Shown here: piece after piece, positions 38,434 through 64,000 of the stretch | How the letters are laid out: each line of letters starts with the position of its first letter | How positions within the stretch are numbered: position 1 is the first letter of the stretch | Assembly (NCBI GenBank): GCA_000002445.1 | Contig: CP000066.1 | Location: 576,001 to 640,000 of the forward strand | From: Trypanosoma brucei | Lineage: Eukaryota | Direction: 5' to 3' | Length of the DNA: 64,000 nucleotides | Notes under the pieces: generated by a model | Seen by the model: only the letters and a program-made list of their open reading frames with translations | What the model was told of the DNA's origin: nothing | The model's database searches: none | Program-made: the position numbers and the translations under genes

Positions 38434-39702
<1,269 letters not shown>

Positions 39703-46815: not shown

Positions 46816-47856
46816 GCGGTAAAATAGATCTCAAAAACAAAAGAAAGAAAGAAAAAAAGAGGGACTGAAGAAATGAAGATGAAGATGAGAGAAATGAGTG
46901 AAGAAGTTACGAGGGGAGGGAGAGAAAGAAAAAGAAAAAGGGAGGGAAGGAGGGAAAGAAATAATTTCAAAATAAAACAAAAAAAAAGGGAAGTGACCAC
47001 AAATAGACGGCAACGCAAACGTTTTACGGTGTCGTATAATTTGGTAACCATCTTTAATGAAAAGTGTCTTCATTAGGCGAGGGACACCGTTCGTTTTTTG
47101 TTTTCTTTATATATACATATATATATATATTTATTTATTTATTTATTTATATTTATATATCCTCTCTCTCTCTCTGTGTGTTCCTCTTCCTTTCCCTATC
47201 CCTTTCTCTCTAATTCGCTAAATCTTCATTTATCTTCTTTCCATCCCCTCCCTTTCCACATCCTTTGATTTGTTTTGGAGGATTTTCGCACATCTTGTCG
47301 AGTTTCTACCGATTATTGTGGTGGTGAATTCTCGAATGCATCAAATGGTACAAATATTTCTTTCTGTTGCTTTTGTGTTCTCCCCTCTTTTTTTCTTTTA
47401 GGCGTTGTTATTACCGCTACGGTTGGTATTTTTGTACTTTCTTCGCATTCTTTTGGCATGTGTTGTCTTTGTATTTATTTAAATCTTGTTCTTGTTGTCG
47501 TTTTGCCTTCATACTCTTACAGTTCTAAACAGAAACAAACAAAAAAAATACCTTTACATCACTTTCCTTTACTTCCCTTTTACTTCATTTCTTTCTTTCG
47601 GCTTTCCTCTACCCATCTGCTGTTTGATTTATTTATTTATTGGTGCTTATGCGTCACGTAAATGTGCACATGAATAAATAAATAAATGAATGAATTGTTC
47701 TTTGCTTTATTAGTTCAAGGGAGAAAAAATAAATAAATAATAAATAGTAGTAACAGCATCACCAACAGTAGCGGCATAACAAAGAAAATTTCAAAAAAAA
47801 AGAAATAGAGGTGTGAGTTTATTTGCATCATTTATAAATATTAATATCAAATATAA

Positions 47857-48054
47857 ATGCCTGAGACGCCACAGCGAAATGGATTCAAGCGTCCAAGTCT
47901 TGCAGCTAAATTATTCGGTGATGCGGATGTCGTTTATTCGAGAGAAACAACATCTCGACTAACGGATTTTGCGGGAACATTTTTAGTCGGATTTTTCGCG
48001 GTTTACTTCACAATTGCGGGATATTTACTTTATCGTGAGGCAGCGCTCTCGTAA
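47857..48054 (+). CDS. Hypothetical tail-anchored micro-protein, 65 aa
   Basis: Single C-terminal TM (FLVGFFAVYFTIAGYLLY). GC3-rich codons contrast with the AT-rich surroundings. The call is marginal. Confidence 0.3.
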   Translation: MPETPQRNGFKRPSLAAKLFGDADVVYSRETTSRLTDFAGTFLVGFFAVYFTIAGYLLYREAALS

Positions 48055-49139
48055 AAAATAAAAAATAATATAATAATAATAAATAAATAAATAAATAAAG
48101 GAGAAGAAGAGAAAAATAAAATAAAATAAAACGTGTCATGGCGATGTTGTTGGATATTATTATTATTACTATTTATTCCAACAATGAAGATGCACCCATA
48201 ACGATCAGTTGAAGGGAAGGAAAGTGTGAAAAATCAATCATTACACTACCTATTTAGACATAGGTTTGGAGGGGAGAGATCTTTTTTTAAAAAAAACAAA
48301 AAAAAAATCTCCCCGGGTCCCTTTTGTGTTCTTCCTTTTATACGTGCGGTGTGTTGCGCTGAGAACTCACTGAGAAGTGCGTGACTGCGTATTTAAAAAT
48401 AAAAATAAAAAAAACACCGTCACCTTCCCTCGGTATTTAGTTAATCATTATATTGCCATACCTGTTTTTATTTTATTTTATTTACTTACTCACTTTGATC
48501 ACAATGTAAGTTCTCGGGCCGGTGCCGTTTTTTTTTTGCAATTTTTGGTGTTATGATCTTCCATTCGTCCCTCTTTTTTATCTCCTTTTTTTTTCCTTTT
48601 TTTTTCCACTGCTTTCTCCGCCTACACACTTTTAAAAATGAAATAAAAATTGTGCAGCATTTTCGCGCAGAAAGTCAATGTGCTCCCTTTATAAAAGCTA
48701 AGAGAATGGGGGAGTGTTGCGTACGCTCATGCGTTTTTGTGAGGGTTAATGAGTTTTCATCCTTTCAAAACAAAAACACAAAAGGGAGAAAATAACAGGG
48801 ACAAAGGGGGGGAAAAAAGTAGCAATGTTTTGTTTATTGATAATCCGCTAATTTATCTTAACTGCGTTACGGAATATATGATATATATTTGTGTGTGTAC
48901 GCGTGCATGTGAAATATCCAACACTCATTGCGTCATTTTGAAATTTATACCTTCTTTCTTTTTTGTTTTCCTTAAAATAATTCCGCTCCGCTTGGTTATT
49001 GCTCTGAAAGCTCAAGCGGCGCAGCGGGGGGGCGACTTTCCGTTGTTGTTGCTGTTATTATTATTATTATTATTGCTATTGTTGTGTGTTGTTCTTTTTT
49101 TTTAAAAATAAATAAATAAATAAAAGGAAACAGCATTGT

Positions 49140-49898
49140 ATGCTCCGGTGTATACAATGTAATGCGGCGGTCTACCGAATTGTTCAGCCGGAAAACGAGG
49201 TGGTTGAGAAGTGTGGGACATGCGGTAGGCGGTGTGATAGGTATTATGAATTCTCTAACTGTCAAAAGTGGATAAGCATCACGTTGCTTGAGAAACCTGC
49301 ATGGATTCATGTGTTATTTAACAAAAAAGATATCCGCGCGACATTATTTTGCACAGCCCTCCTGTCACGACTTATTGAAGCGTACGTCGTGCGAACGAGT
49401 TTGGTGTATGGCGCCTTACGCATGCTTCGGTCTAAGGGACCGGTTTCTAACGTAAGTTCGGTTGCGACACTTCAGCTTTTCCGGAATGTGAATCCCAAAA
49501 TAGAACCGCTGATGGCGTATCAGGACACTTTGCCCAATATATTTATTTGTGCTTGTGGAGAATATTTGCTTTGCCTTTTGGTCACTGTTATATTTGCGCT
49601 TCATTCGTGGCGTCGTGGTGGCTCGGCTTTATGGGATGTTGTACTCACATGGATGACATGTGTTAATCTTGCCTATTCAGCGAAGTTGTGTTTCGTAGTG
49701 TTCCTTATTTGGCGCATTCCCATCGCATTAGTATCCCTGGTGGATCTTATCAGTCTCCTTTGGGCTGCTCGCGGTTTCAGTCTTGTGGAAAATAGATATC
49801 CACCATTATTTACATCTGTTGTTGTGCTGATTTGTACGGCAGCCACACGATATCTCTTCCGTAGTGTTACGCAGTGGAGTCCACAACTTCTGGTGTGA
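49140..49898 (+). CDS. ARV1: ARV1-family protein (sterol/lipid homeostasis)
   Basis: N-terminal zinc-ribbon Arv1 homology domain CIQCNAAVYRIV...CGTCGRRCDRYYEF...IHVLF, followed by multiple TM segments. Confidence 0.65.
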   Translation: MLRCIQCNAAVYRIVQPENEVVEKCGTCGRRCDRYYEFSNCQKWISITLLEKPAWIHVLFNKKDIRATLFCTALLSRLIEAYVVRTSLVYGALRMLRSKGPVSNVSSVATLQLFRNVNPKIEPLMAYQDTLPNIFICACGEYLLCLLVTVIFALHSWRRGGSALWDVVLTWMTCVNLAYSAKLCFVVFLIWRIPIALVSLVDLISLLWAARGFSLVENRYPPLFTSVVVLICTAATRYLFRSVTQWSPQLLV

Positions 49899-50647
49899 TC
49901 GAAATGAATGTGAATGTCTCTTTTTCCCATTGTTCTCGCCCTTTTGTAATCATATTTATATATTTTTTCTTGTTTTTTTTTGTATTCTTCCGTCCTCGGT
50001 CCGGTCGGTTACCACTGTAAATGTAACCTACAACTTTCCTTTCCTTTCCTTTCTGCTTTGGTTTGGTTTGGTTTGGCTTGGTTGCACCGAAAGCACTTTT
50101 CTACTTCTCCATCGCCGCAATAATTGTTTTTTGTGGTGTTTCCCGTTCATTCGGTATCAGCATCAGATGGGAACTTTGTCGCTGCTTCTTTTCTTTGTTG
50201 TGTACCTTCCTCTTCTCCACTATTAATTGCGGTGCCCTCTGATTTATTTGCTTCGTCGTGTATATGCTGATGTATGTATATATATATATATAGAAATATA
50301 TAAATATACATGTGTGTATATGTATATATTGGCCCTTTTTGTTTCAATTTATTTCTTCGTCGTCTTTTCATGTTTCGTTATTGTGCAAGTAGAAACACCC
50401 ACAGGTGTCTGACACTTAGGCATAACAGTGTAAAAAGGTGGGGATTAGTTACGGGTGGAAGAAGAGGAGGAAGTTGAGGAAAAGATAGCAACGAAACAAA
50501 AGCTAAAGCTAAAGCAAAAAAAAAAAAGAAGAGAAAACGATAGAAGGGAGAGTAAAAAAACGGAAAAAAAACGGGAAAAAGTTAAGAGAACAATCATAGG
50601 GCAATAAAATAAGGCCAGATTTTCGCACAGGTGATAAACAGGAAACA

Positions 50648-53539
50648 ATGGATGCGAAACTTGTGTTCTGTGCGCACTCGCTCAAGTTACCAACGCTGAG
50701 CATTCCCCCAGCTCTGTCAGTAGATAATGAAACCATCAACTTCAGATGTCCGGAACCTCTTGCAGAAGCTGGTTTCCCCGTTCCAAACGCATCATTTACT
50801 GCTGACGTGATGATGGAGCAACCGCAATCCCGCTCCATTTACCAGCGGGTGTTCGCAACAGCTGCACGGGATTTCGAAGGGCGTAAAAATCTGGTAGTTT
50901 TCAGCTACGGCGTGCGTTCCACACCGAAACGGCAGCTTATGTTTGGTTCGGAATCGGGTAGCGGTTATGCTGCGAAGATCATTGGCGATGTTGTGGATGT
51001 TGGTGCCACCAAAGGCATCTTCGCCATCTCTGCGTATGGTGTTGGTTCCTCAGAGCATCTCACCGACTTCACTGATGAGAATAACGAAATGGGAGTAATT
51101 GTAGAATCGGTGAAGGAGGGCCCGCGTGTGCGTATGGTTGGGCGTGTTCGTGTAACGTCATCGGAGGATGTGCGTTCCGTTTTTAACACAGTTACGAAGA
51201 ACTATCAAAAACATTTCGAGTCAGTACTCCGCGAGAGGCAACCAACAGCTGAGCTTGAAGCCCTTCCGCCATATATGCCTGAGTCAATGATTCTTCAGCT
51301 CTACCGTTATGATGATGAGGAAGCATTCAGCGAGTATGTGGAAGCGAACTCCATGACGTTTGTTGCACTGGGAGACTCGGAACGGCCTGTTCTTTGTGGA
51401 ATTGAAGAAGAAACTCAGCAGGAGTATGAAAAGACACAGAAAGTCCTTGCGTCAGCAGTAGGAATTATCTCCAGTATTCGCTGTAATCGTCTGCGCATTC
51501 CATTCGGCAAGTCGAAATTAAGTCAGCTCCTTCGCCGTGCATACAATGCCGAGAAGGGCAACCCCAACAACGGCTACAATGAGCCAACATCAACCGTTTT
51601 TATTATTCATGCCTTTACAGACGCTGTTTGGGCAGAGGAGTCATACCACTGCCTTTTACTCTCGCGACGAGTTAGCAGCGTTGTTGGCACGAGCAGCATC
51701 GGTTCCATTACGCGCGACCTCAGTGTCGATAAGTGGCGTTTGGATCAAGATATTATGGAGTTGCGTGATGAGCTTCAAATTGCGCGCACAGTGTATGACT
51801 ACAGGCCCTGTATATATGACCAACCGAAGCCAGTTCAGAATATCAGAGAGGAGGAACAGAAACGCATTAGCGCCATTGTTTCAAAACGGGAGGAAGCCCG
51901 TGAAAGGCAGCTGAGTTTGGTCCGCGAGCAAGCCAAGCAGGATGCTGATAAAATCATTAAGGATCTCGAAGCTCGGACGGGGACGACGCTCTCGGCGCTG
52001 GAGGCCTCCCTCGAGGCGAAAATGAAGGAAAACTCGGCGCTTCATGCGGACAGGGAAAAACGAATTCATGAATATGAGCAAACCTTAGAAAAGATTCGCA
52101 AAAAGAAGCAGGAGGAGGAATCCGCGTGCGAGAAGCTACGTGAAGAGATGCTCCAGCTTGAACAGGAACTTAGTGTTCGGCAAAACGCAATTGAGAGCAA
52201 GCAGAAGAATTTGGAAATGATAAAGCTGGATAAGTCAAAGGGCCGTGACGCGGTTATGCGTGAGCGACAGTCCATACAAGCGATGCGCAAAACGGTGCTA
52301 GAGGAGAGGCGGCGTCAGCGCAAACAGTGGATTAACCAAATAAAAGAAATCAACGCTAAGGTTATTGATCAGGTCCGGATGCTGGCCGAGGAACGGAAGA
52401 AAAACGGTGAGCAGCCCACAGCAAATGAAGAGGCTGCTGAAAAGGCAATCATCGCGGATGTGCGAACTATCGAGGAATACTTGCCAAAACTCATTTCACT
52501 TGAGGACGTTCCCGTGAATTTGGAGGAGACGGAAGCCATTCGCCGACAATTTGCGGATGTGTTTGCGGAAGAGAAAAAGACATATCTTGCGCGGATCGAA
52601 GAGGAGAAGGCGCGGAGAGAAAAGCTGGAGCGTGGCCTCGAAGTATATCGTCAGCGCCTACTCGACACATATCAAGCTAAGAAAAAGGAGAAGGTGCATG
52701 ACGCCATAACAAAAGAGCAACACCTCAGCTCATTGGTGGATCAAGTCATTACGTACTTGCGCAACGGTGTCCGAATGAGCAAAATTTCAAGCAAAGGAAA
52801 TATTCGCCGGCGGTTCTACTTCCTCTCCGAAGATTACAAACGCATTCACTCCTGTGAGATTGATAACCAAGGCGCGCCAATCAGCCGGAAGAAACCACCC
52901 GTCACCATATGGCTGAAAGATATAAAGAAAGTGGTTATTGGCGTATACACATCTTCATTTACAAACTTTAGCAGTGAGGCTCAGTTGGCGAAGACGCGTC
53001 AGGAGGCCGTTTCTGACAGCGGAACTTACCGTCAAGACCCAACGCAAAACATCACCTCAGCCAACCTTGGTTTGCATAATTACAGATCCTTTGCACTTCT
53101 GCTTCGTGGAGGTAAATCTCTGGAAGTTGTTTGCGAAACGGACAGCGACTGCGAGGCTTGGCTTGTTGCGCTCAAGCGACTCCTTCAAATAAAATCTCCT
53201 ATTGAGCGAATTCTTGAGGAAAGGATGAACGGCAATACGACGAAAGAATCACCAAGTAACACACATGAAGGTGCTGTTGATATAAAATGGGGTGGTTCAC
53301 TTGATATACACAACATGCGCGGGTTTGTTTCCCTGTCGTCTGAAGAAGCCACGCTGTGTAGTGAAAACCACATCCCGCCCGCTTTGTTCCTTCGGATGAA
53401 GCAAGAAATGGCAGAAAAGGCGGAAAGGAATACCATCACGATTTATGATGTCCGTGTTTCTTCCGGTCTTGACTTATTCCGCTCAGGGAAGCTTTATGAT
53501 TTCTTATGCGAAAAGAGAGTCATACCGCTCCCGTACTGA
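50648..53539 (+). CDS. Large coiled-coil protein with C-terminal PH-like domain, 963 aa
   Basis: Extended heptad-rich Lys/Glu/Arg/Gln region (about 51850-52700). C-terminal RRRFYFLSEDYKRIHSCEI...ALLLRGGKSLEVVCETDSDCEAWLVALKRL fits a PH-domain pattern. Confidence 0.65.
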   Translation: MDAKLVFCAHSLKLPTLSIPPALSVDNETINFRCPEPLAEAGFPVPNASFTADVMMEQPQSRSIYQRVFATAARDFEGRKNLVVFSYGVRSTPKRQLMFGSESGSGYAAKIIGDVVDVGATKGIFAISAYGVGSSEHLTDFTDENNEMGVIVESVKEGPRVRMVGRVRVTSSEDVRSVFNTVTKNYQKHFESVLRERQPTAELEALPPYMPESMILQLYRYDDEEAFSEYVEANSMTFVALGDSERPVLCGIEEETQQEYEKTQKVLASAVGIISSIRCNRLRIPFGKSKLSQLLRRAYNAEKGNPNNGYNEPTSTVFIIHAFTDAVWAEESYHCLLLSRRVSSVVGTSSIGSITRDLSVDKWRLDQDIMELRDELQIARTVYDYRPCIYDQPKPVQNIREEEQKRISAIVSKREEARERQLSLVREQAKQDADKIIKDLEARTGTTLSALEASLEAKMKENSALHADREKRIHEYEQTLEKIRKKKQEEESACEKLREEMLQLEQELSVRQNAIESKQKNLEMIKLDKSKGRDAVMRERQSIQAMRKTVLEERRRQRKQWINQIKEINAKVIDQVRMLAEERKKNGEQPTANEEAAEKAIIADVRTIEEYLPKLISLEDVPVNLEETEAIRRQFADVFAEEKKTYLARIEEEKARREKLERGLEVYRQRLLDTYQAKKKEKVHDAITKEQHLSSLVDQVITYLRNGVRMSKISSKGNIRRRFYFLSEDYKRIHSCEIDNQGAPISRKKPPVTIWLKDIKKVVIGVYTSSFTNFSSEAQLAKTRQEAVSDSGTYRQDPTQNITSANLGLHNYRSFALLLRGGKSLEVVCETDSDCEAWLVALKRLLQIKSPIERILEERMNGNTTKESPSNTHEGAVDIKWGGSLDIHNMRGFVSLSSEEATLCSENHIPPALFLRMKQEMAEKAERNTITIYDVRVSSGLDLFRSGKLYDFLCEKRVIPLPY

Positions 53540-55197
53540 GCGGTGAAGGAAATATGAGAGTGTTATCAGGAGCCAACAGAATTTGTTTCTGAACTTTACC
53601 TTCCCTTCCTCTTTATTATTTCCCCTTATTTCAGTGATGATTCTGCTGCCGTCGCATTGTCCCACCCGCTACGTTCAATTATTTAGTAAATAGTTGGGAA
53701 GGGTGTCCACGTTTTTTTTTCAAGTTCTTTTTTTTTTTTTGGAACTTCCGGTCATATCCGAAATGGGCAGGGAGGTAGAAAGAGGAGGAAAGAGCAATAT
53801 AAACTTGGTTCCAGTCTGCGTTGCGTGAAATCCCCACGTTTCGAAACTGAAATAATATGTTCGAATGTTATGCTTAATAGTAACAATCACAATAATAATA
53901 ATAATACGTCTCACATCATCTTTCTTTCTTTCTTTATATTTAAATTTTTATTTGACAAAGAAAAAAGGATTATGGGTTTATAGTTAGGAAAAAATGACTA
54001 TATTTCCCCAATAACTGAGTTAAGGCGCATACCGCAGCAACATGCGAAACCCAAGTTTCAGTACCACTCAAATATACATTCATTAGTTAAAAATTTTTTT
54101 GCTTGCGGAATGAAGCTCGTTAGCTCACGCAAAAGGTGATGAAGTGGAACCGGCAATTTTTACAAAAAAAAAGCGTTATTGCTTTAATGACACAAGGGTG
54201 GGTATTCTTCGTAAAAACATAACGGCGTGATATGGGGTCAAATATGCGGACAGCCGCATATTTTAATTTTCGCACATGAAAAAAGCTCACCCGCAGCCAC
54301 ATCTCACTAGGGAAAGTTAGGAAGGGTAAAGTGCTCCCGCAAACGATGTGACGGAAGGATCAGAAATGATGCATTTGAAGATGGGGGCTGCCGGATTTTA
54401 TTATTTTGGGCCGGGGGAATACTCTTGCAAATGTGTGGAACGGGGGAAAAGGCAACACGAGGGGAGGGTTTTTTTTTAAAAAAAAGTGTCCGGGGAACAG
54501 GAATTTAATACGCTGTGCGGAGCATGGTGAAATTGGCAGAGGATGGTTTCATGGGAAGGACAGAGGTAGAATTCGGGCAAAACTGCTTGGAAGAAACTAA
54601 GCGAGGGTGCAATTTGTTAGAAATATCTAAATAAAGCGAACGTGGCGGATTGGGGGAAAGGGCGAGAGGAAACGCAAGAAACGCGAGCGCTTCTGTCAAA
54701 TACGGAAATACAGGAAATTGGAAGCAGGGCCAAGTTATCCGGTCAGATGCATAAAGACGCAACTCCCTCGTAATAATCCTCTGGAGAATACCATTAGGAA
54801 GTTTTATTTTAAAAAAAAAAAACTTTCGAAGTTCAACGCAAGATTCTTCGGAAGTACCGCAAAACTAAAACCGTGCCTACACTCGCTCCAGTCGACAAGA
54901 CGCTTTTAGCTAGTTTCTCAGTTGAGGTTGCACCTTTTGCTCCCAAGCATACTTGTTGTTTTGCTTTATCTGAAGAGATATAAAAAAAATACCACGCATC
55001 CGCAAAATGCGTCTGAACCAAACCGATCTTTTATGTATCGTATCAACTAGCCGATGAGGTGCGTGAGGAAACTTCCTTCATAGAATTGCTAAAACAACAG
55101 GTGTGTGGGGAGGAAGAAAGTGTTGTATAACAGTTTTGCATCGTTAAGACTCCGTGGGCACGTACCTGAACCAAACGTTAGGATTTAAGGGGTGTGC
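53540..55197. terminator. Convergent strand-switch region (probable Pol II transcription termination zone)
   Basis: Plus-strand cluster ends at 53539 and minus-strand cluster ends (3' side) at 55198. AT-rich with no credible ORF. No tRNA found by eye. Confidence 0.65.
54155..54400 (+). repeat. About 245-bp repeat, copy A (inverted partner at 63150-63395)
   Basis: The reverse complement of 54155-54400 aligns with 63150-63395 at roughly 90% identity by manual comparison. One example is atcatttctgatccttccgtcaca[c/t]tgtttgcgggagcactttacccttcctaactttccctagtgagat. Confidence 0.85.
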
Positions 55198-56385
55198 TTA
55201 AAAAACTAGAAAAAATAACTTAAGTGGTTCTGGGAGGCGGTTTACACCGCTGGAGGTGAATAATCTTCGTATGGAAGTCACGCATTCGCTCCCATTCCAT
55301 TCGCACCGCGGCTTCTGTTCCAGGCAAGTTACCTTGCTTTCGAAACCAGAGCATCCTCTTTTAGAGGACGTAGTCGGTTTTTTCCCCTCCAGTCCATTAT
55401 CAGTATTATTGGATTCGTCCTTTTCTTTTTCGCTTGAATTGTTTGGGACAGGTCGTGCCCCCCTCTTCAATTCGTTTACTTGGTTTTGAATCTTCACGAG
55501 GTACTCCTCGGCTTGGATCAGTTCTTCCATTCTGGTTGCAGCTTCTCGCAACTTTAGATACCACGAAATTGTTGGCGTGCTTTCATTGACGTGTCTTGGG
55601 AGATATATTACGCATCGGCCATGGCCAACCTCGGTGCTTCCGTCGCAGCCGTTGTGTAAGTCGGCGCCGCGCGCGCCCAGTAAGTTTCGTGAATCCGATG
55701 AAGAGTCCGGTATTTCCTGGAGTTCGCCAAGGAAGAAAGCGACCGCCTCTGAGAGCGCTTGAAGCGGCCGAGTTTTCTCTCTCCTCACGTTGCTGCACTT
55801 GGGATGGAGCAAATTCCAGTGATCAGGAGAATTTCTCTGGGGTACCCATGATCCTACATAAGTGGTGTTGCATCCATCACAGCAAACCGCGCTGCCGCCT
55901 TTGCCTTCGCTGGATGCTGCACAGATGCACAGTAAATCAAGCGCCAGCGCATCACCCGCTTTATTTCCGGGCTGGCCGCCAGCTCTTCCACATAACTCCG
56001 ACCTCCCACCCCGCGTGCGCCCGACCACCACCTGTTTATGACCGTTGCCGTACAGCGCTTCTGTTAAATTTTTTCTGATAGCTGATAAGGCCCGGCCGTT
56101 CCATAAATCACCGTTCTCTTCCTTATATGTTTTCGCTTTTAGTTTAAGTTCCTCAAGTTTTTTAACATTTTCTTCGGGCGCTTCGGCCTCTCCCTGAATT
56201 TCGTCTTCTGTTTCCTTAACCTTGCGCTCCAGATCCTCCGGTGTTTGTGTATCCAGCGCAAGATTTACAAAACCACACAGCGCTTCGAATTCCTTTCCAT
56301 TCACAATGTTGTTTTCATGCGCCTTTGAATTGACGCAGATATGTTGCAGCGTTACCACCGCAACAAACACGATGTAACTCCTCAT
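55198..56385 (-). CDS. Predicted secreted/GPI-anchored surface glycoprotein, family paralogue 1 (VSG-related-like)
   Basis: Signal peptide (MRSYIVFVAVVTLQHICVNS) and C-terminal hydrophobic GPI-type tail (LKLFFLVF). Shares EFEALC and ALALDLLCIC motifs with the three downstream paralogues. ATG 56385 chosen over the ORF-track start 56553. Confidence 0.6.
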   Translation of the reverse strand: MRSYIVFVAVVTLQHICVNSKAHENNIVNGKEFEALCGFVNLALDTQTPEDLERKVKETEDEIQGEAEAPEENVKKLEELKLKAKTYKEENGDLWNGRALSAIRKNLTEALYGNGHKQVVVGRTRGGRSELCGRAGGQPGNKAGDALALDLLCICAASSEGKGGSAVCCDGCNTTYVGSWVPQRNSPDHWNLLHPKCSNVRREKTRPLQALSEAVAFFLGELQEIPDSSSDSRNLLGARGADLHNGCDGSTEVGHGRCVIYLPRHVNESTPTISWYLKLREAATRMEELIQAEEYLVKIQNQVNELKRGARPVPNNSSEKEKDESNNTDNGLEGKKPTTSSKRGCSGFESKVTCLEQKPRCEWNGSECVTSIRRLFTSSGVNRLPEPLKLFFLVF

Positions 56386-56831
56386 CCCCAACAATTTCGT
56401 ATATGCCTTTTTGTTCACAATGATGTCACCTGTCTCCCCAGAAAATTCGAAAGATGACGTACCAAACTTAGCGAAAAATACACACATACCGCGTAGGTGA
56501 GGATCATGACGAATAAAAAGCTCTCTCGGCTTCTCTCCCCAGCACACACACAAAAAATTGTTACATAACGTTTCAGCTCCCTTGAGAAGTCATAGCATCA
56601 CAAGAGAGCTCCACATGGAAGCCACCGCTGCTATCTCGATAGCAGCATCAAAAAGCCAGACACAAATTCCAAAAAAAGAAGGTGATACCACCTTAATTAT
56701 TCATCCAAAGAAAAACGAATTCATATGCGATTGTTAATAAACCCACATATTGTTAAAATGAAACACACGTACACATAAAAGCAAAATATAAAAAAGATAC
56801 TGCACGACAATGTTGGTAGCGTACCAGTAAA

Positions 56832-58202
56832 CTAAGACATACAAAAAAGGGATAGAATCATTAATGTAAAAATATCAGTTGTTATATCTATATAGTTGAA
56901 TCCATTATTATTTACTTCAGCATTGCCACCTTCACCATCATCCTGACCTCGGTTACTTCGCCATAGCTCAGCATCACCACCTAGCTTCACCTCAAGAAAT
57001 ATTTCCTCTGCCTCATGTTGGTATTCTTCCAATTCGTGAAGATGACTGTCAGACTCTTTGGCATACTTTGCCATTTCTTGTAGTTGCTCGGTGGCGTTAG
57101 TAAGATGGTTGTACCAAGGGATCCCACCATTTTCAAGTGTGTAGTTGTAGCTGACACATGTGAATCCAGCAGTATGACCCGTGCAGGTGCGATTCTCGTT
57201 GTTTAATGTTTTCACATAACCAAGAATACCCTTCACCTGATACTTATCCTGTTCCATTTCCACTAACGCATCGAACTGAGCTAGCGCACTCTTTAAGGTT
57301 TTCACATTAGATGCAATATTCTTGTACACGCAAGCTTTACTAATCACATCCCATGCCTCAGTATGGTTGTATTTTATATTTTCAGGCTTGCAGGTATTAT
57401 AGTTGCTCGGACAATACTCAGCCATCATAGTCCAACTACCATTTTTAGGTCTCCTTATTGCATCCTTACAAGGACAGTCATATCCACTGTATATGTTTTC
57501 ACTACTTGAGCCAGTATCCATTTGGTATACGCGTGTCTGTCGCTCTTCCTTCTTTTTTTCTATAGCCTCTCCCACACATAGGCAAAAGAAGTCATTAATT
57601 AGTGTCTTTCCAACTAGCTTGTCTCCGTAAGAACCACAGCTTGCGTCCGCATTGTAGACACTATTGAACAACAGTGATTTGTTTCCCCTCATGGCTTCCT
57701 CCAGAGTTTTATTCTCATTTCTTGCCACATCCACAGCGTCGCCATACACAGCCCTCAGCATATTTTCTTCAGCAGAGCGACTTGCATTCAAGGCTTTTGT
57801 CCTATTCACCTCTATCTGCTCCTTAAGCTTTTTCGCCTTCTCAAATAGTTTCTTCATCTCCTGATATGCTGTCGTGCTGTTAGATGAATTGTTCGAGCCC
57901 TTATTGCCACCAGCAGCTTCTGCCTCACTGACCATTTCCTCCAAATTCTTCAGAATCTCTCCTTCCTTCTCACGATTCTTAAAGGAGGGTTGCGGGGCCT
58001 CTGCTTGCGTGATTCGGTAAATCTTGCACAGTGTTTCGAACTCACCAACGTTGTGATGTTTTTCATCTGCATCGACGGTCTCCATAATCCTATCCCAGTC
58101 AAGCATATCAGTTCTCCATCGATATTCTGCCATATCACCCTGAGAGGAAGGAGATAAAACAACCACAAGCATCCCAACGGCAAACACTGTTTCGTGTCTC
58201 AT
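56832..58202 (-). CDS. Predicted secreted/GPI-anchored surface glycoprotein, family paralogue 2
   Basis: Signal peptide (MRHETVFAVGMLVVVLSPSSQG), motifs EFETLC and LINDFFCLC, multiple N-glycosylation sequons, and C-terminal hydrophobic tail (IFTLMILSLFCMS). Confidence 0.6.
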   Translation of the reverse strand: MRHETVFAVGMLVVVLSPSSQGDMAEYRWRTDMLDWDRIMETVDADEKHHNVGEFETLCKIYRITQAEAPQPSFKNREKEGEILKNLEEMVSEAEAAGGNKGSNNSSNSTTAYQEMKKLFEKAKKLKEQIEVNRTKALNASRSAEENMLRAVYGDAVDVARNENKTLEEAMRGNKSLLFNSVYNADASCGSYGDKLVGKTLINDFFCLCVGEAIEKKKEERQTRVYQMDTGSSSENIYSGYDCPCKDAIRRPKNGSWTMMAEYCPSNYNTCKPENIKYNHTEAWDVISKACVYKNIASNVKTLKSALAQFDALVEMEQDKYQVKGILGYVKTLNNENRTCTGHTAGFTCVSYNYTLENGGIPWYNHLTNATEQLQEMAKYAKESDSHLHELEEYQHEAEEIFLEVKLGGDAELWRSNRGQDDGEGGNAEVNNNGFNYIDITTDIFTLMILSLFCMS

Positions 58203-59418
58203 CGTGATTTTGCCTCTACAATCATCAGTCAAAAGGAGGGAAAAAAATCTTATTATCACGTTCATTACTGTTATTGACAAACACAACAAACATGGAGATA
58301 CATCAATGTATCGAAGTTAACAAGTGCCCGACACAAGTCAACCGAAACAGTATCCAACAAAACAGGAAGCACATCCCAATACATACAGTTAGATGAGTGT
58401 ATTCTTTCAAGCTGGACATCAACGTTAGACTTCCTCACAACTGCGGTATTCTCCTTTTCGTTACACCATTTCTCCTAATTTCCTCCCCAAAAAATCTGCT
58501 TTATTTGATACCATGCCAGTATATCCAATTTTCCAACTGAGTTCCTCTTGCACTCCCTTGATTTCCTCAATAATAAGCTGATCCATTCTCTTAATGAAGA
58601 CTTGCACCTTTATGCCATGTTTTTTTCCACATCCTTCATTGGATCTGTTAGTTTAAGTTGCCATTTTATGGTCTTATTTGCTAATAGATTACGTGCTTAA
58701 TTCGCACGTGTTACCTTTATCCAATGCACACAACTCTGCTGCTGAACTCCACTCAGCATATCCTCCTCCACTCATACGCATACTCACAAAACTTTTTGTT
58801 TACCTATTCTTGACCATGCACAGTTTCCTGCCTTCCATTTTCTTAAGCCATACACTAGAAAAGATAAAAGTTGTATTTTCAAAACACCATCTCGGATACT
58901 TATGCTCACTATTGAGGCCCTTGATTATATGGTGACATGATGGAATATTATGGTATTTTCCAACACAAAAAAGTCCCAGAATAATTAGTGACCTTCCCTG
59001 TCAGCACCCTCATTTAGATCGTTCACCTCATTAACCAGCCACCATCCTTATAGATACGCTGGTAGAAAAAAACGGAAGTTATGCACGTTATCGCCCATCC
59101 CCTCAACGAATTCTATCCACCCTTACCCCACACAGGTTTTTTGCATAAGAAACGACAAACAAGAAACAAAACTACTCTTGTGAGCACAAAACCAAATATT
59201 TCTTCCTTACTTCACATGCAGAAAGAATTAACACACCCCACTACCCTACAACACAAATGGTGGAGGGACAGCCATAGTCACTACCACTCACAATTAAGAT
59301 AACCCAGACAGGGAAACTCCAGATAAAGAAATGCCCAGTTACGAGAAAGATCCTAGCGCGCACACGTAAAGATATTTCATTTATTATGGAACAGGGAGAA
59401 TATTAATGAAAGTACTTT

Positions 59419-60393
59419 TCAGATGGTAAAATTAGTACTCTTCATATTATCAATGTTATTCGTGCTGAACTGCAGCGAAGTGAAATTCCTATGGATATCG
59501 TTGAAGTAGCTCTGCAGTAAAGTGATATTGGCCATCATATCCAGGAGTTCAGGAGGTGCTTTGCCAGAAGTAAAAGGTTCGATAAGAGGGTCAAATATCT
59601 CCTCCACGTAAATTTGGAGCTGAAAAAAAGCGGGGCCGTTCTCACGCCAGTTTATTAAGCCAGTTGAATTCTTCACCGCACCACCCTTATATAAGTTGTC
59701 ACGCGGTAAGTTCAAGCATTTGCTCACAGATCCAGATCCAGTTAAAACATCAATTTGAAGGCAACCTCCCCTGTATTTTTGGAGAGTGATCTCGTTCACA
59801 CCGGTTAATAAAGGACATGTCTGATCAACACATACGACTGGGAACCCCCTGACACCTTTCAGCGCTCCTTTCTTGCACTCGGGTCCTTCATCATTGCTCA
59901 CGGCTTTAACGTCATCCCACACAGTTCTTGCGATCTCAGCAATAGCTGTGTAATATTTATTTGATGTTATGAGGGCACCAGGTATTGCATTCCTCACTGC
60001 CCTCACGCTTTCATTAACCTCAGCAAATAATCCACCTGCCTTAGCAACAAGATCTCCCATTGCATTTCCATAAGATATAAGGTTTTCCAATTTATCATTT
60101 TCCTCTACCATTACACTGCTAATAACACTCAAATATATAACACTTTCGCCTGTTTTCCCTTCCATGTCATCCAGCATACGAGACGCATTTGCGTATACCT
60201 CCTCATTCAAAAAAAGCTTCCTCTCGCCATCTGTATATAGTTTGTTTAAGGCATCTGAAAGACATTTGAGGTAACATACGGATTGGTTTAAGTTTGTGCC
60301 CTTGTCATCATCTATTGATGTGCAATAACTTTCTTCTGCCACTCCAAAGGTCACAAAAAAAAAAACAACCAATCCTACAATCTTAATTTTCAT
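59419..60393 (-). CDS. Predicted secreted protein, family paralogue 3 (no obvious GPI signal)
   Basis: Classical signal peptide MKIKIVGLVVFFFVTFGVA directly after a pyrimidine tract. Cys pattern and N-glycosylation sequons are present. The C-terminus is hydrophilic. The ORF-track upstream extension to 60684 is judged non-coding. Confidence 0.5.
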   Translation of the reverse strand: MKIKIVGLVVFFFVTFGVAEESYCTSIDDDKGTNLNQSVCYLKCLSDALNKLYTDGERKLFLNEEVYANASRMLDDMEGKTGESVIYLSVISSVMVEENDKLENLISYGNAMGDLVAKAGGLFAEVNESVRAVRNAIPGALITSNKYYTAIAEIARTVWDDVKAVSNDEGPECKKGALKGVRGFPVVCVDQTCPLLTGVNEITLQKYRGGCLQIDVLTGSGSVSKCLNLPRDNLYKGGAVKNSTGLINWRENGPAFFQLQIYVEEIFDPLIEPFTSGKAPPELLDMMANITLLQSYFNDIHRNFTSLQFSTNNIDNMKSTNFTI

Positions 60394-61732
60394 TACTAAA
60401 CAATTACATTTGACAAGAGGAATGAAAAAAACACATACACATCGCCACACAAAACCAATGAGTGTCACAAATGTATAATCCCAATACCCACAGTGTTTCA
60501 TACACATAACATTGAACCACATAATAAATATTGCTACAAGAGACGTTAAACCCAACAGAATATGATGCTCCTTCTTCATTGTCAATCCTCCTTCATCCGT
60601 CACATCGTCATCATCCTCACTTCCATTGCATTTCCTCCCACTCTCCTTGAAATATTTACACACAATCAGGTTTTGAGATAGCAACTCTTTCAGTTTATTT
60701 TCATGCCCAGTAAAGGAAACAAAGATCAGCTCTACATCACCGTACCGTTTGGTGATACTCCCATATCATTTTGTGACTAAATTGTAGCTGTTGATAAGCT
60801 AGGGCACTATATCACTGAACATTAGGGTGACAACACCATCCCTATGGTAGTTAACGAAACCTCCGGTAGTTCCCACTATGAAAGTTCCAACTCCTGCAAC
60901 CGCAGCACCTTACGTACCCATGATCCAGCAATTGATGGTTGCTATCGGTTGTAAATTCAATTGGTTGATTAGCTGTGTAATTATTTGTGCAACCAATATA
61001 CCATCATTTGGCATATCTTCAGTGAAAGAGAAATTACACATGTTAGGAGATTCCGCTACTCTGTGCTTATGTTAATTACTTTAACATTCATTTCCTGAAG
61101 AGGCGGCTTTCTCCTTCACAAGACAACAACCATTTGCTTTAGCATTTGTTTGTCTAAAAACCATTACCAGATCCTTCAACACTTGTCCAATTGACAATGA
61201 TGCATTCACAACATGATTAGACACTCTTATTTCGTTTAAATAACTTGCGTCTATTACCTGTCCAGGTTCATCTGTATTCTTCATTATATTCCTCAACCTC
61301 TACGTTATCGCTTTCCATGCCCTTCCCTTTACATCATAGTGATATCACCACATCAGAAACCCATTCAACATTTACATAGCCTCCGATTGTCATCTTCAAA
61401 ACACTAACACTCACAGTCCCCAAGGCACAACTGAAGCTAAATACCGTTTGTGTCCCTTGACGGACACCTCAACTCAGTGCCAGGGTCTAGCACCCTGCTC
61501 AGGTAAGAGAAAAAAAGCGACAGCATCCTACTCCATTAGGATTAAGTTCAGACGGAAAATCCAAGGCTTCAATTCACAATGGAGCACACACCGTAAACGT
61601 TACAGGACAAGCATTATTCTTGGAAATAAAATAGGCACAGTTGCTGTGCCGTCAACTATACCAAAAAGAAATCCACTATTATTACCATTAGTGTTAGTAT
61701 TGGCGCAGTGGAGCCACATATGATGTTGTGTG

Positions 61733-62845
61733 TCACAGCAGAAAGAGCAAAAACACCACCAACGGTGAAATAGCCTGAGCGACATTTTTCGGCCGAAGTG
61801 GCTGGTGTGAGGGTTGGAGTGAGTGATTGGTTCTTGTTTCACCAAGAGGAACCAAGTCAGGGTCGGTGGTGCTTTGTGTAGCTGCACTTGTGTTGGGTGC
61901 CATTGGTGTATTGCCATCAGTTGCCGTTGAGGGAGATTGCTTGGGACGTTGCTCGGGAGATGGATCCTCCTCTGGTTGTACCTTTATTTCCGGGGGTGAC
62001 TGACGGGGTGGTGAGCCTCTTGTTGGAATAGGCGGTTCCCTCTGCTCCTGCGGTGGCATTTTGTTGACTTTTTGTGCATTTTCCTTTTTAGGGGTTTTCA
62101 ACCTTTTGACAAGGTCTTCTAGTTGTGTCAACCACTCAATTTTGACTTGATTTGCTCCTCCGCCTTCCATTTTATAGAAAACACATGGGGCGTTATTTGC
62201 ACTGCCAGACCCTCCACAAGATTTGGTGATCGGCTCCCGCCCGTGTCCGAAGCGCTTAGTTTCCCTCTCTGTTGTTTTCTCGGTCATTTCATTCAGTTTT
62301 TTCCTAAGATTTTGGACGGTTGTGGTTAATGATTCAAAACCGATGCTTTCTATATTAATTTGCTCGGTGCACTTTTGCTTGATTTTCCCCCAACTTTCTT
62401 CGGCTCTGTCCTTGTTTCCCCAACTTTCGGCAGGATCATACCACGCATTGGCTTCGTAGCACAGATTTTTTTGGTGGTCACCGTTTCCGCTGGGTCTGCA
62501 AAGACACAGAAGGTCCAGCGCTAACGCTTTGCCTCCAAATCCGCCTCCGAATATGCTGGTGTAGCCACAGTCAGCTTCTCGTTTTTCTTTTCCAGTCCAA
62601 TTAAGGGAGCCATCGCTGTCACTACCGTACAAGACTTTCATCGCGGAACTGTCGAAGTCGTTTGCGACCTCGGCTGTGAGTCTCTCTTTCTCCACCCACT
62701 CGTGTATTCTCAGTGTCAAATTTAAGAAACTGCAGAGCACGTCAAACTCCCTTTGGTTCAACGTATTTTCTATCTCTGCGGCCGGCACGCTCAACCCTGC
62801 CGCCTTCCAAACCACGCACAGCATAGTCACTAATATTTTCCACAT
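61733..62845 (-). CDS. Predicted GPI-anchored surface glycoprotein, family paralogue 4, with Pro/Ser/Thr/Gln-rich stalk
   Basis: Signal peptide (MWKILVTMLCVVWKAAG), motifs EFDVLC and ALALDLLCLC, a roughly 70-aa mucin-like stalk (PPQEQREPPIPTRGSPPRQSPPEIKVQPEEDPSPEQRPKQSPSTATDGNTPMAPNTSAATQSTTDPD) and hydrophobic tail (ISPLVVFLLFLL). Confidence 0.6.
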   Translation of the reverse strand: MWKILVTMLCVVWKAAGLSVPAAEIENTLNQREFDVLCSFLNLTLRIHEWVEKERLTAEVANDFDSSAMKVLYGSDSDGSLNWTGKEKREADCGYTSIFGGGFGGKALALDLLCLCRPSGNGDHQKNLCYEANAWYDPAESWGNKDRAEESWGKIKQKCTEQINIESIGFESLTTTVQNLRKKLNEMTEKTTERETKRFGHGREPITKSCGGSGSANNAPCVFYKMEGGGANQVKIEWLTQLEDLVKRLKTPKKENAQKVNKMPPQEQREPPIPTRGSPPRQSPPEIKVQPEEDPSPEQRPKQSPSTATDGNTPMAPNTSAATQSTTDPDLVPLGETRTNHSLQPSHQPLRPKNVAQAISPLVVFLLFLL

Positions 62846-63149
62846 CGCCTTCCTAAGCATCAATAAAAAAAATGAAACAGATAGTAGAGAAATCTCCAAT
62901 GAGAGGGGCAGGGACACTTTTAAAGGGTGAAAGTTTAACCCTATTAGGTATTTCATGAAACATCAGCAGAGGTCAACCAGAGAAGATATGAAAGCTCATA
63001 TCTCCATAGACTACATTTATTTTTTTAAAAGTCTCTTTACCATCCCAAGACTAGTTTGGCACTTAAGTTTACTTCTGGTTTTGATACTTGCTGCCATTGT
63101 CTTAACCTATCTGCCTTAAAGTTTTGATAACATCAAGGGTTTCCGCTCT

Positions 63150-63395
63150 TTTTTGGGGGCCTCCATCTTCAAATGCATCATTTCTGATCCTTCCGTCACA
63201 TTGTTTGCGGGAGCACTTTACCCTTCCTAACTTTCCCTAGTGAGATGTGGCTGCAGGAGAGCTTTTTCATATGTGGAAATAAAACCACGCGGCTATCCGC
63301 ATATTTGACCCCATATCACGCCGTTATGTTTTTACGAAGAATACCCACCCTTGTGCCATTAAAGCAATAACGTTTTTTTTGTAAAAATGCGATTA
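63150..63395 (-). repeat. About 245-bp repeat, copy B (inverted relative to copy A)
   Basis: See copy A. Similarity ends abruptly at both edges (gtaaaaat | divergent). Confidence 0.85.
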
Positions 63396-64000
63396 ATTAT
63401 TAACATGACTATTGAAAACGCTATTGTGATGTTGAACATGGTTTACCGTTTCAATTCAATTATTTCACCACAACAATAGCCAAATAATACACGATCTACC
63501 AAACAAACGCAACAGAAAGGCATTCACCAACTTCAGAAAAAAAATTTATTCAAACGGTTTTCAAACAGTACATATCCTACCATTCCCACCCAAAACACCT
63601 CAGAAACTGTTGATTTTCAAGGTAAATCACAAATCGAAACATAAGCAGCAAACTACCCCACCCATACAAATACACGAGAATAAATGTGGTATAACAATAC
63701 CAGATAAGCTCGGTGACCGTATCCTACACCAAAATAGGTATTAATAACAATGTGAGGCTTGGGCACAAAATATGAAGGGCCATTGATTCCGCCTTTTTTC
63801 TTAGGGCAGAGGAGTTCTGTTCCCTTTCATTGGTGATGAGGCTATTATTATCACCCCAAAACCAGTTTTTTTTATCACTGCCTCTCCATGTGGATATTTT
63901 CCTTGTCTGGCGACCCGGCACTCACTTTTTTCTGCTTTTCTTAGGTGATGTTAATTGATTGCCTTACAGCCTATACCATTTATCTATTCACGAACGTTAC

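What the first reader, a model, noticed from the sequence alone, without database searches (positions are those of the whole stretch)
55198..62845. Tandem array of four highly diverged paralogues of a VSG-related-like surface family
All four proteins begin with a signal peptide and share an N-proximal EF-x-x-LC motif plus an (A)L(A)LD(L/F)(L/F)C(L/I)C motif, yet are otherwise strongly diverged and differ in length. Three end in GPI-type hydrophobic tails and one (59419-60393) appears purely secreted. One (61733-62845) carries a Pro/Ser/Thr/Gln-rich mucin-like stalk that is absent from the others. Divergence within a compact array suggests diversifying selection on surface molecules.
Basis: partly seen in the sequence, partly recalled or inferred. 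Interest (0 to 1): 0.6.

Follow-up and report, generated by a model that had tools for sequence, protein, structure and literature searches.

The report
Known trypanosome VSG-related/ESAG gene cluster
These are four already-annotated Trypanosoma brucei genes (Tb927.3.2500, .2510, .2520, .2540): three very distant relatives of the parasite's variant surface coat protein and one unrelated ESAG1-family gene, so the cluster is real but ordinary and is not four copies of one family.

Summary
The window is T. brucei brucei TREU927 chromosome 3, bases 576001-640000. The four minus-strand ORFs exist at the stated coordinates and are annotated genes:
- Tb927.3.2500: atypical VSG-like, labelled 'hypothetical'.
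- Tb927.3.2510: ESAG2-family (GRESAG2).
- Tb927.3.2520: ESAG1-family (GRESAG1).
- Tb927.3.2540: VSG-related VR8.

Three of them (2500, 2510, 2540) carry the b-type VSG N-terminal domain (Pfam VSG_B, E 1e-24 to 4e-45). They share the EFxxLC and LxLDLLCxC motifs, a signal peptide and a GPI-like hydrophobic tail. The fourth (59419-60393) has neither motif, is Pfam ESAG1 (8e-115), and shows no detectable homology to the others (hhalign probability 0.5%).

The three VSG_B genes are only 21-23% identical to each other. Each has much closer paralogues on other chromosomes, so this is not a locally duplicated array.

dN/dS between T. b. brucei and T. b. gambiense orthologues is 0.2-0.5, so there is no sign of positive selection. 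The diversification I could detect is mosaic gene conversion of the ESAG2 copy with chromosome-1 paralogues.

Published microarrays show all four mRNAs enriched in bloodstream forms.

Side results: the AlphaFold model of the ESAG1 copy looks like the HpHbR/GARP three-helix-bundle receptors, and a 230-bp inverted repeat brackets the cluster.

Verdict: already known; low interest.

The parts
55198..56385 (-). Tb927.3.2500: atypical VSG-like protein, 395 aa. It has a signal peptide, a b-type VSG N-terminal domain, a Ser/Asn/Lys-rich linker, a 4-Cys C-terminal domain and a short GPI-like tail.
   Evidence: Exact match to XP_843844. Pfam VSG_B E 4.4e-45. PDB VSG1954 8b3w at 1.3e-10. The C-terminal 96 aa give a sub-threshold Trypan_glycop_C hit, E 0.0035, 18.1 bits against a cut-off of 21.4. 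The T. b. gambiense orthologue is 98% identical.
56832..58202 (-). Tb927.3.2510: ESAG2-family gene (GRESAG2), 456 aa, with a signal peptide, a VSG_B domain and a hydrophobic GPI-type tail.
   Evidence: Exact match to XP_843845. Pfam VSG_B 1e-24. 65-79% identity to named ESAG2/GRESAG2 proteins. Named ESAG2 at chr3:632832 in the supplement of PMC2771046.
59419..60393 (-). Tb927.3.2520: ESAG1-family gene (GRESAG1), 324 aa, with a signal peptide, 7 N-glycosylation sequons and no TM segment or GPI tail. It is not a VSG_B protein.
   Evidence: Exact match to XP_843846. Pfam ESAG1 8.4e-115. 48-64% identity to ESAG1 proteins. No similarity to the other three. The AlphaFold model is a long helical bundle.
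61733..62845 (-). Tb927.3.2540: VSG-related VR8, 370 aa from the ATG at 62845. The reference annotation starts at 62956 and gives 407 aa. It has a short VSG_B domain, a Pro/Ser/Thr/Gln-rich disordered stalk and a GPI-type tail.
   Evidence: The 407-aa form is an exact match to XP_843847. Pfam VSG_B 2e-27. PDB VSG1954 at 1.6e-6. The paralogue Tb09.v1.0300 and a 370-aa strain variant start at the same Met. Stalk composition and pLDDT below 50.
53540..55197 (.). Convergent strand-switch region between the plus-strand PH-domain gene (50648-53539) and the minus-strand cluster.
   Evidence: ORF strands. The GC-skew sign changes at about 56 kb. No tRNA or Rfam hit.
54159..54388 (.). Left arm of a ~230-bp inverted repeat that brackets the cluster.
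   Evidence: the repeat finder pairs I1/I2, 90-96% complementary. blastn 93% over 233 bp. Also present in the T. b. gambiense locus.
63159..63387 (.). Right arm of the inverted repeat, upstream of VR8.
57058..59212 (-). Tract that diverges between T. b. brucei and T. b. gambiense (67-91% DNA identity per 200 bp). It covers the 5' ~85% of the GRESAG2 coding sequence plus ~1 kb upstream, and is read as segmental gene conversion.
   Evidence: Windowed identity against L001, where flanks are 97-99%. dS 0.42 against 0.01-0.08 for the neighbours. Mosaic best matches to chromosome-1 ESAG2 paralogues.

Best explanation
This is a chromosome-internal cluster of four T. brucei-specific secretory-pathway glycoprotein genes. 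It lies at the 3' end of a polycistronic unit that ends at a convergent strand-switch region on chromosome 3.

In the direction of transcription the genes are VR8 (Tb927.3.2540), an ESAG1-family gene (2520), an ESAG2-family gene (2510) and an atypical VSG-like gene (2500).

**What is shown**
- Three genes descend from b-type VSG and keep its cysteine scaffold. One is an ESAG1-family gene unrelated to them in sequence.
- Each gene is closer to paralogues elsewhere in the genome than to its neighbours.
- The cluster is syntenic in T. b. gambiense.
- All four mRNAs are bloodstream-form enriched in a published microarray.

**What is inferred**
- The proteins enter the ER through cleavable signal peptides.
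- The three VSG_B proteins receive GPI anchors and sit at low abundance as non-variant VSG-fold proteins in the surface or flagellar-pocket membrane. VR8 would be held on a disordered, probably O-glycosylated, stalk.
- The ESAG1-family protein is a soluble N-glycosylated helical-bundle protein of the endomembrane or secretory lumen.
- The large divergence between the genes reflects old separate lineages (ESAG2, VR, VSG-like, ESAG1) that were brought together, not diversification in place.
- The ongoing change I could detect is ectopic gene conversion between ESAG2 paralogues, together with relaxed purifying selection.

The ligands and biochemical roles are not known.
For: - **Identity and coordinates:** exact protein look-ups. 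Published gene start coordinates equal the window coordinates plus 576000.
- **Family assignment:** Pfam, named homologues and PDB VSG hits.
- **Shared scaffold:** invariant columns in alignment A2.
- **Unrelatedness of ESAG1:** blastp and hhalign probability 0.5%.
- **Not a VSG cassette:** no 70-bp-type tandem repeats and no VSG 3'UTR 16-mer.
- **Synteny:** 95.5% DNA identity over 16 kb with T. b. gambiense chr3.
- **Selection:** dN/dS 0.47, 0.29, 0.21 and 0.46, against 0.10 and 0 for the PH-domain and Arv1 neighbours.
- **Gene conversion:**
- **Expression:** microarray signals for cultured bloodstream / slender / stumpy / procyclic log / procyclic stationary (supplement of PMC2771046; these genes fall in its group B, 'BF>>PF'):
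  - 2500: 775/712/925/188/292
  - 2510: 1585/2288/2159/788/447
  - 2520: 6414/8146/10328/1226/660
  - 2540: 2297/3917/3527/703/263
- **Literature on location:**
  - VR genes sit at internal strand-switch regions without 70-bp repeats (PMC2771046).
  - ESAG2 localises to the cell-body membrane, ESAG1 is not surface-localised when tagged, and VR proteins are enriched in the surface proteome (PMC4587319).
  - Similar internal ESAG1/ESAG2/ESAG11/VR groupings are listed on chr1 and elsewhere on chr3.
Against: - No dedicated SignalP or GPI predictor was available. Anchoring is inferred from tails and from literature on family members, not on these particular genes.
- The tail of Tb927.3.2500 is short (8 residues, including a Lys). 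Its mRNA signal is low (under 1000), so it may be poorly expressed or decaying.
- The ESAG1 copy carries a frameshift in the T. b. gambiense assembly, so it may be dispensable.
- The AlphaFold model of VR8 was poor (pLDDT 53) and gave no structural match. Its VSG fold therefore rests on sequence homology only.
- No protein-level data for these exact genes were found.
Confidence: 0.85

Rival explanations
1. One reading: one family duplicated in tandem four times at this locus, and the copies were driven apart by diversifying (positive) selection on surface molecules.
For: Three genes share the VSG_B domain, the two motifs and the signal/GPI architecture. Orthologue dN/dS for Tb927.3.2500 and .2540 (0.47 and 0.46) is higher than for the housekeeping neighbours (0-0.10).
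Against: One member is ESAG1, which has no detectable homology to the rest. The three VSG_B genes are 21-23% identical to each other but 40-80% identical to paralogues on other chromosomes, so they did not arise by local duplication. All omega values are below 1, with only 12-13 substitutions per gene.
Confidence: 0.05
2. The cluster is a transposed piece of the telomere-proximal part of a VSG expression site (ESAG2 / ESAG1 / VSG region). It was inserted as a cassette between the two arms of the 230-bp inverted repeat at the end of a core transcription unit.
For: - The gene content (ESAG1, ESAG2, a VSG-like gene with a C-terminal domain, and a VR) matches the promoter-distal module of bloodstream expression sites.
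- In BES11 a VR replaces the ESAG2-11-1 module (PMC2567434).
- A ~230-bp inverted repeat brackets exactly these four genes.
- For the internal ESAG6/7 pair, secondary transposition from an expression site to a strand-switch region has been proposed (PMC3605285).
Against: - The order here is VR-ESAG1-ESAG2-VSG-like, whereas expression sites read ESAG2-ESAG11-ESAG1-70 bp-VSG.
- There is no ESAG11, no 70-bp repeat and no VSG 3'UTR 16-mer.
- The inverted repeat and the cluster are shared with T. b. gambiense, so any such event is old.
- The genome-wide distribution of the repeat could not be examined.
Confidence: 0.15
3. Tb927.3.2500 (and perhaps VR8) is simply a silent archive VSG or a decaying VSG pseudogene that serves as a donor for antigenic variation.
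For: Strain orthologues are deposited as 'variant surface glycoprotein 1125.4916', '1125.1387' and '1713'. Tb927.3.2500 has VSG-like N- and C-terminal domains and a tail resembling a VSG GPI signal. Its mRNA signal is low.
Against: - The location is chromosome-internal, with no 70-bp repeats and no 16-mer.
- The ORFs are intact and 98% conserved between subspecies, with omega about 0.47.
- Expression is bloodstream-enriched but not clonally variable, typical of VR genes.
- The closest solved VSG is only a distant match.
Confidence: 0.07

Closest known systems
VSG-related (VR) genes of T. brucei (Marcello & Barry 2007 nomenclature, cited from my own knowledge; described in PMC2771046 and PMC3605285)
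   Same: Tb927.3.2540 is listed as VR8. It is chromosome-internal at a strand-switch region, lacks 70-bp repeats, has a b-type VSG-like N-terminal domain and is bloodstream-enriched. Tb927.3.2500 behaves the same way, although it is annotated as hypothetical.
   Different: VR8 and its paralogue VR16 (Tb09.v1.0300) carry a ~110-residue Pro/Ser/Thr/Gln-rich stalk in place of a VSG C-terminal domain. Tb927.3.2500 keeps a degenerate VSG-type C-terminal domain.
ESAG2 / GRESAG2 (VSG_B-derived expression-site-associated gene family)
   Same: Tb927.3.2510 is 65-79% identical to ESAG2 proteins over its full length and has the same signal peptide, VSG_B core and hydrophobic tail.
   Different: It lies in the chromosome core, not in a telomeric expression site. 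Its 5' part is a strain-specific mosaic of chromosome-1 paralogues.
ESAG1 family (Pfam PF03238)
   Same: Tb927.3.2520 matches the whole ESAG1 profile (E 8e-115). It has the family length (~325 aa), the conserved Cys positions and the C-terminal ...TNxTI ending.
   Different: It is a core-genome copy only 48-64% identical to expression-site ESAG1s. The T. b. gambiense orthologue carries a frameshift.
Canonical b-type VSGs (e.g. VSG1954, PDB 8b3w; VSG615, PDB 8ok8)
   Same: Homologous N-terminal domain with the conserved EFxxLC, YG, CG, GKxLxxDxxCxC and CVxY/W columns.
   Different: Identity to VSGs is not above about 25%. There are no 70-bp repeats, no 3'UTR 16-mer and no telomeric or subtelomeric location. 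The genes are conserved between subspecies and do not vary.
Trypanosome three-helix-bundle receptors (HpHbR 4wjg/4x0j/4e40, factor H receptor 6xz6, GARP 2y44, Tb427.07.360 5vtl)

Membership tests
b-type VSG N-terminal domain superfamily (Pfam VSG_B, PF13206) | Profile match above Pfam's gathering score | tested here: met
   154.9, 87.9 and 96.8 bits (cut-off 25) for 55198-56385, 56832-58202 and 61733-62845. There is no hit for 59419-60393, which therefore fails this test.
b-type VSG N-terminal domain superfamily (Pfam VSG_B, PF13206) | Conserved cysteine scaffold and N-proximal motifs shared across members | tested here: met
   Invariant columns F34 L37 C38 Y73 G74 C93 G94 G105 L108 D111 C114 C116 C129 W135 W152 C159 C221 V222 Y224 W238 in 17 sequences. 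These motifs are absent from the ESAG1-family protein.
b-type VSG N-terminal domain superfamily (Pfam VSG_B, PF13206) | VSG three-helix-bundle fold | tested here: inconclusive
   Sequence homology to solved VSGs: 8b3w at 1.3e-10 and 1.6e-6, 8ok8 at 3.2e-10. The AlphaFold model of VR8 was poor (pLDDT 52.7) and Foldseek found nothing.
Canonical variant surface glycoprotein gene (usable in antigenic variation) | 70-bp repeats upstream of the gene | tested here: not met
   No tandem repeat with a period near 70 anywhere in 53000-64000.
Canonical variant surface glycoprotein gene (usable in antigenic variation) | Conserved 16-mer TGATATATTTTAACAC in the 3' UTR | tested here: not met
   Only two 3-mismatch matches in the window, none downstream of any of the genes, and no more than chance gives.
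Canonical variant surface glycoprotein gene (usable in antigenic variation) | VSG C-terminal domain (Pfam Trypan_glycop_C) | tested here: inconclusive
   Only Tb927.3.2500 gives a hit, and it is sub-threshold: E 0.0035, 18.1 bits against a cut-off of 21.4.
Canonical variant surface glycoprotein gene (usable in antigenic variation) | Telomeric or subtelomeric location | tested here: not met
   Position ~631-638 kb of a 1.65-Mb chromosome, flagged 'I' (internal) in the supplement of PMC2771046.
ESAG2 family | Full-length high identity to named ESAG2 proteins | tested here: met
   65-79% identity over 97-100% of the query to ESAG2/GRESAG2 entries.
ESAG1 family (PF03238) | Profile match above the gathering score and full-length identity to ESAG1 proteins | tested here: met
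   382 bits (cut-off 27), covering profile positions 1-227 of 227. 48-64% identity to 39 ESAG1 proteins.
VR (VSG-related) genes | VSG-like coding sequence at a chromosome-internal strand-switch region without 70-bp repeats | tested here: met
   Named VR8 in the supplement of PMC2771046.
GPI-anchored surface proteins | C-terminal GPI signal: a small omega residue, a polar spacer and a hydrophobic tail | not testable with these tools
   No GPI predictor was available. By eye, the tails are IFTLMILSLFCMS (2510), PLVVFLLFLL (2540) and the short LKLFFLVF (2500); there is none in 2520.
HpHbR/GARP-type trypanosome three-helix-bundle proteins (considered for the ESAG1-family gene) | Elongated three-helix-bundle fold | tested here: inconclusive
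HpHbR/GARP-type trypanosome three-helix-bundle proteins (considered for the ESAG1-family gene) | Detectable sequence homology | tested here: not met
   The profile search of 1.84 billion representatives found only T. brucei ESAG1 proteins. The profile against PDB found nothing at E up to 10.

The most novel reading that the evidence does not exclude
ESAG1 has been reported to lack homology beyond T. brucei, with a suggested de novo origin inside the expression site (PMC3605285). On this reading it is instead a highly diverged, anchorless member of the trypanosome three-helix-bundle receptor class (HpHbR/GARP/factor-H-receptor-like). All four genes of the cluster would then encode elongated helical-bundle proteins of the host-parasite interface. 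On the same reading the cluster, bracketed by a 230-bp inverted repeat, would be a mobilised or invertible module related to the promoter-distal end of VSG expression sites.
Probability: 0.3. Interest if true: 0.45.

Novelty: already known. Interest (0 to 1): 0.15.

Why it matters
The cluster itself adds nothing new. These are reference-genome genes whose families (VR, ESAG2, ESAG1), internal strand-switch location and bloodstream-stage expression were described between 2005 and 2015.

The check is useful mainly as a correction. A shared signal-peptide/GPI architecture and adjacency made an unrelated ESAG1-family gene look like a fourth paralogue. Deep divergence between neighbours was read as local diversifying selection, when it reflects old, separately evolving lineages plus ectopic gene conversion.

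Two small by-products might interest trypanosome specialists:
- A predicted HpHbR/GARP-like helical-bundle fold for the orphan ESAG1 family.
- A clean example of mosaic conversion between core-genome ESAG2 paralogues on chromosomes 1 and 3.

Tried and rejected
- **AlphaFold of VR8:** I used a mixed VSG_B alignment. The result was low confidence (pLDDT 52.7) and Foldseek found no match, so it cannot be used as a fold test.
- **afdb50 fold search:** the library was not available.
- **ESAG1 profile search:** the search of 1.84 billion representative proteins for relatives outside T. brucei returned only four hits, all T. brucei ESAG1 proteins or fragments. The same profile against PDB found nothing.
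- **hhalign of ESAG1 against the VSG_B group:** only the signal peptides align, probability 0.5%.
- **VSG cassette hallmarks:** the searches for the VSG 3'UTR 16-mer and for 70-bp repeats were negative.
- **RNA genes:** the tRNA and Rfam scans of the window were empty.
- **Intergenic ORFs of 50 aa or more:** none looked like a further family member such as ESAG11, and tblastn found no extra copies or fragments in the window.
- **Protein-level data:** supplement searches of PMC4587319 and PMC3605285 for these gene IDs gave no hits.
- **dN/dS among the four genes:** not attempted, because 21-23% protein identity means synonymous sites are saturated. I used orthologue pairs instead.
- **Marcello & Barry 2007:** not in the paper library.

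Full report
**Where the window comes from.** Exact-sequence look-ups place the four ORFs and the upstream PH-domain gene on the 1,653,225-bp chromosome 3 of Trypanosoma brucei brucei TREU927. Gene start coordinates in a published microarray table are 631198, 632832, 635419 and 637733. These equal the window coordinates 55198, 56832, 59419 and 61733 plus exactly 576000. The window is therefore chr3:576001-640000, and the genes are Tb927.3.2500.2510.2520 and .2540 (supplement of PMC2771046).

**Check of the observation.**
- The four minus-strand ORFs exist as described. They lie just beyond a convergent strand switch: the plus-strand PH-domain gene ends at 53539 and the first minus-strand gene ends at 55198.
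- All four start with a charged N-terminus followed by a strongly hydrophobic stretch. The published table flags a signal peptide for 2500, 2510 and 2520. It does not flag one for 2540, most likely because that gene is annotated from an upstream ATG at 62956.
- The two motifs are present in three proteins only: EFEALC/EFETLC/EFDVLC and LALDLLCIC/LINDFFCLC/LALDLLCLC. The 59419-60393 protein has neither.
- Hydrophobic C-terminal tails occur in the same three proteins. The 59419-60393 protein ends in a polar ...KSTNFTI.
- The Pro/Ser/Thr/Gln-rich stalk of 61733-62845 is real. P+S+T+Q is 38-55% over residues 241-360, and those residues are predicted disordered. Its paralogue Tb09.v1.0300 has the same stalk.

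**What the genes are.**
- Pfam assigns VSG_B (b-type VSG N-terminal domain) to 2500 (4e-45), 2510 (1e-24) and 2540 (2e-27). It assigns ESAG1 (8e-115) to 2520.
- Tb927.3.2500 and .2540 match the solved b-type VSG1954 (8b3w) at 1.3e-10 and 1.6e-6. A profile of the three groups matches VSG615 (8ok8) at 3e-10.
- Tb927.3.2510 is 65-79% identical to proteins named ESAG2 or GRESAG2. Tb927.3.2520 is 48-64% identical to ESAG1 proteins.
- Tb927.3.2540 is annotated VSG-related and listed as VR8. Its only closer paralogue is Tb09.v1.0300 at 40% identity, which PMC2771046 calls VR16.
- Tb927.3.2500 is annotated hypothetical, but its strain orthologues are deposited as VSGs. It keeps a four-cysteine C-terminal module with a sub-threshold match to the VSG C-terminal domain.
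They are genuine family signatures.

**Relationship among the four.**
- blastp gives 21% identity for 2500 against 2540 (E 3e-12) and 23% for 2500 against 2510 (E 2e-4). For 2510 against 2540 only the motif aligns. Nothing aligns for 2520 against any of them.
- Profile-profile comparison of the ESAG1 family with the VSG_B set aligns only the signal peptides, at probability 0.5%.
- Each gene is far closer to paralogues on other chromosomes than to its neighbours. The cluster is therefore an assembly of four old lineages, not a tandem array diversified in place.
- This agrees with the literature. [quoted passage not shown] Similar ESAG1/ESAG2/ESAG11/VR groupings occur on chromosome 1 and elsewhere on chromosome 3.

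**Not VSG cassettes.** No 70-bp repeats and no VSG 3'UTR 16-mer are present. This matches the published description of VR genes as residents of internal strand-switch regions.

**Evolution between subspecies.**
- The syntenic T. b. gambiense DAL972 locus (L001) aligns over 16 kb at 95.5% identity, with the same gene order.
- Protein identities are 98.0% (2500), 98.4% (2540) and about 96% (2520). The gambiense copy of 2520 has a T7 to T9 change at codon 255 that shifts the frame, and no gene is called there.
- Nei-Gojobori dN/dS is 0.47 (2500), 0.46 (2540) and 0.21 (2520), against 0.10 and 0 for the PH-domain and Arv1 neighbours. This indicates relaxed constraint and not positive selection, and it rests on about a dozen substitutions per gene.
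- The ESAG2 copy is the outlier, at 78% protein identity and dS 0.42. Windowed DNA identity falls to 67-91% between about 59212 and 57058, with 97-99% on both sides.
- The C-terminal ~40% of the ESAG2 protein is 98-100% shared between the two subspecies. The N-terminal part of the gambiense allele is 94-100% identical to a TREU927 chromosome-1 ESAG2 (P0072). The N-terminal part of the TREU927 allele is 95-97% identical, over alignment columns 60-180, to a different chromosome-1 lineage (P0055/P0073/P0074).
- This is segmental ectopic gene conversion, the process already documented for expression-site ESAGs (PMC2567434).

**Expression and location.**
- Microarray signals are given in the order cultured bloodstream, slender, stumpy, procyclic log, procyclic stationary:

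| Gene | Signals |
|---|---|
| 2500 | 775/712/925/188/292 |
| 2510 | 1585/2288/2159/788/447 |
| 2520 | 6414/8146/10328/1226/660 |
| 2540 | 2297/3917/3527/703/263 |

- 2510, 2520 and 2540 are listed in that paper's group B, 'BF>>PF'; 2500 shows the same bloodstream-over-procyclic pattern. Tb927.3.2540 also falls during differentiation to procyclic forms (PMC2753553).
- For the families, tagging and surface proteomics place ESAG2 on the cell-body membrane. They find VR proteins enriched at the surface, and find ESAG1 not surface-associated (PMC4587319).

**Fold of the ESAG1-family protein.**
- The AlphaFold model was built from 36 ESAG1 sequences and has pLDDT 75 and pTM 0.68, with two of five models confident. 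It shows two ~60-residue helices (35-94 and 99-164), a third helix (280-309) and a small mixed subdomain.
- Its nine best Foldseek matches in PDB are all trypanosome three-helix-bundle surface proteins: T. brucei and T. congolense HpHbR, factor H receptor, Tb427.07.360 and GARP. E-values are 0.004-0.08.
- No sequence relative exists outside T. brucei in 1.84 billion representatives or in PDB. This is consistent with the published statement that ESAG1 lacks homology beyond T. brucei.
- No paper in the searchable library links ESAG1 with a helical-bundle fold.
- I treat this as a lead, not a result.

**Inverted repeat.** A ~230-bp inverted repeat (54159-54388 and 63159-63387, 90-96% complementary) brackets exactly the four genes and is also present in T. 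b. gambiense. Its genome-wide distribution could not be checked with the available collections.

**Verdict.**
The genes are VSG-related, but they are not one family, not a local duplication array, and show no evidence of diversifying selection.
- The object is already known and annotated.

Noticed in passing
window 54159-54388 and 63159-63387: A ~230-bp inverted repeat (90-96% complementary) brackets exactly the four-gene cluster, next to the convergent strand switch. It is also present at the syntenic T. b. gambiense locus. Its nature and genome-wide copy number are unknown.
   Followed up: partly
window ~57058-59212 (Tb927.3.2510 and ~1 kb upstream); L001 ~9000-11150: There is a sharp block of 67-91% identity between T. 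b. brucei and T. b. gambiense inside a 97-99% identical locus. The ESAG2 protein is a mosaic: its N-terminal part matches different chromosome-1 ESAG2 paralogues in the two subspecies, and its C-terminal ~40% is shared. This indicates ectopic gene conversion.
   Followed up: yes
L001 7774-8744 (T. b. gambiense orthologue of window 59419-60393): The ESAG1-family orthologue in DAL972 has a T7 to T9 homopolymer change at codon 255 that shifts the frame, and no gene is called there. It is either a pseudogene or an assembly error.
   Followed up: partly
window 62845-62956: The reference annotation of Tb927.3.2540 starts at the ATG at 62956 (407 aa), which buries the signal peptide; a published table flags no signal peptide for it. 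The paralogue Tb09.v1.0300 and a 370-aa strain variant start at the Met at 62845, so the shorter model looks correct.
   Followed up: yes
window 59419-60393 (model mba4e1a298959): The AlphaFold model of the ESAG1-family protein resembles the HpHbR/GARP/factor-H-receptor three-helix-bundle proteins, although the family has no sequence relatives outside T. brucei.
   Followed up: partly
protein P0071 (T. b. gambiense XP_011780785, 146 aa, on the 4.53-Mb contig): A protein annotated 'T. brucei spp.-specific' is a divergent fragment related to the C-terminal half of ESAG1 (profile E 3e-14).
   Followed up: no
L001 1-3254 (beyond window base 64000): In T. b. gambiense, three tandem 219-aa genes without Pfam hits lie upstream of VR8 on the same strand. 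The transcription unit therefore continues beyond the window, and the cluster is its terminal part.
   Followed up: no
window 38000-50000: G+C drops to 0.36-0.41 here, against 0.45-0.50 elsewhere. A divergent strand switch lies at about 9.4-11.7 kb. Neither was examined.
   Followed up: no
window 55596-56078 (+): A 160-aa ORF runs antisense to Tb927.3.2500. It lies wholly within the Tb927.3.2500 coding sequence and was not examined further; I assume it is not a gene.
   Followed up: no
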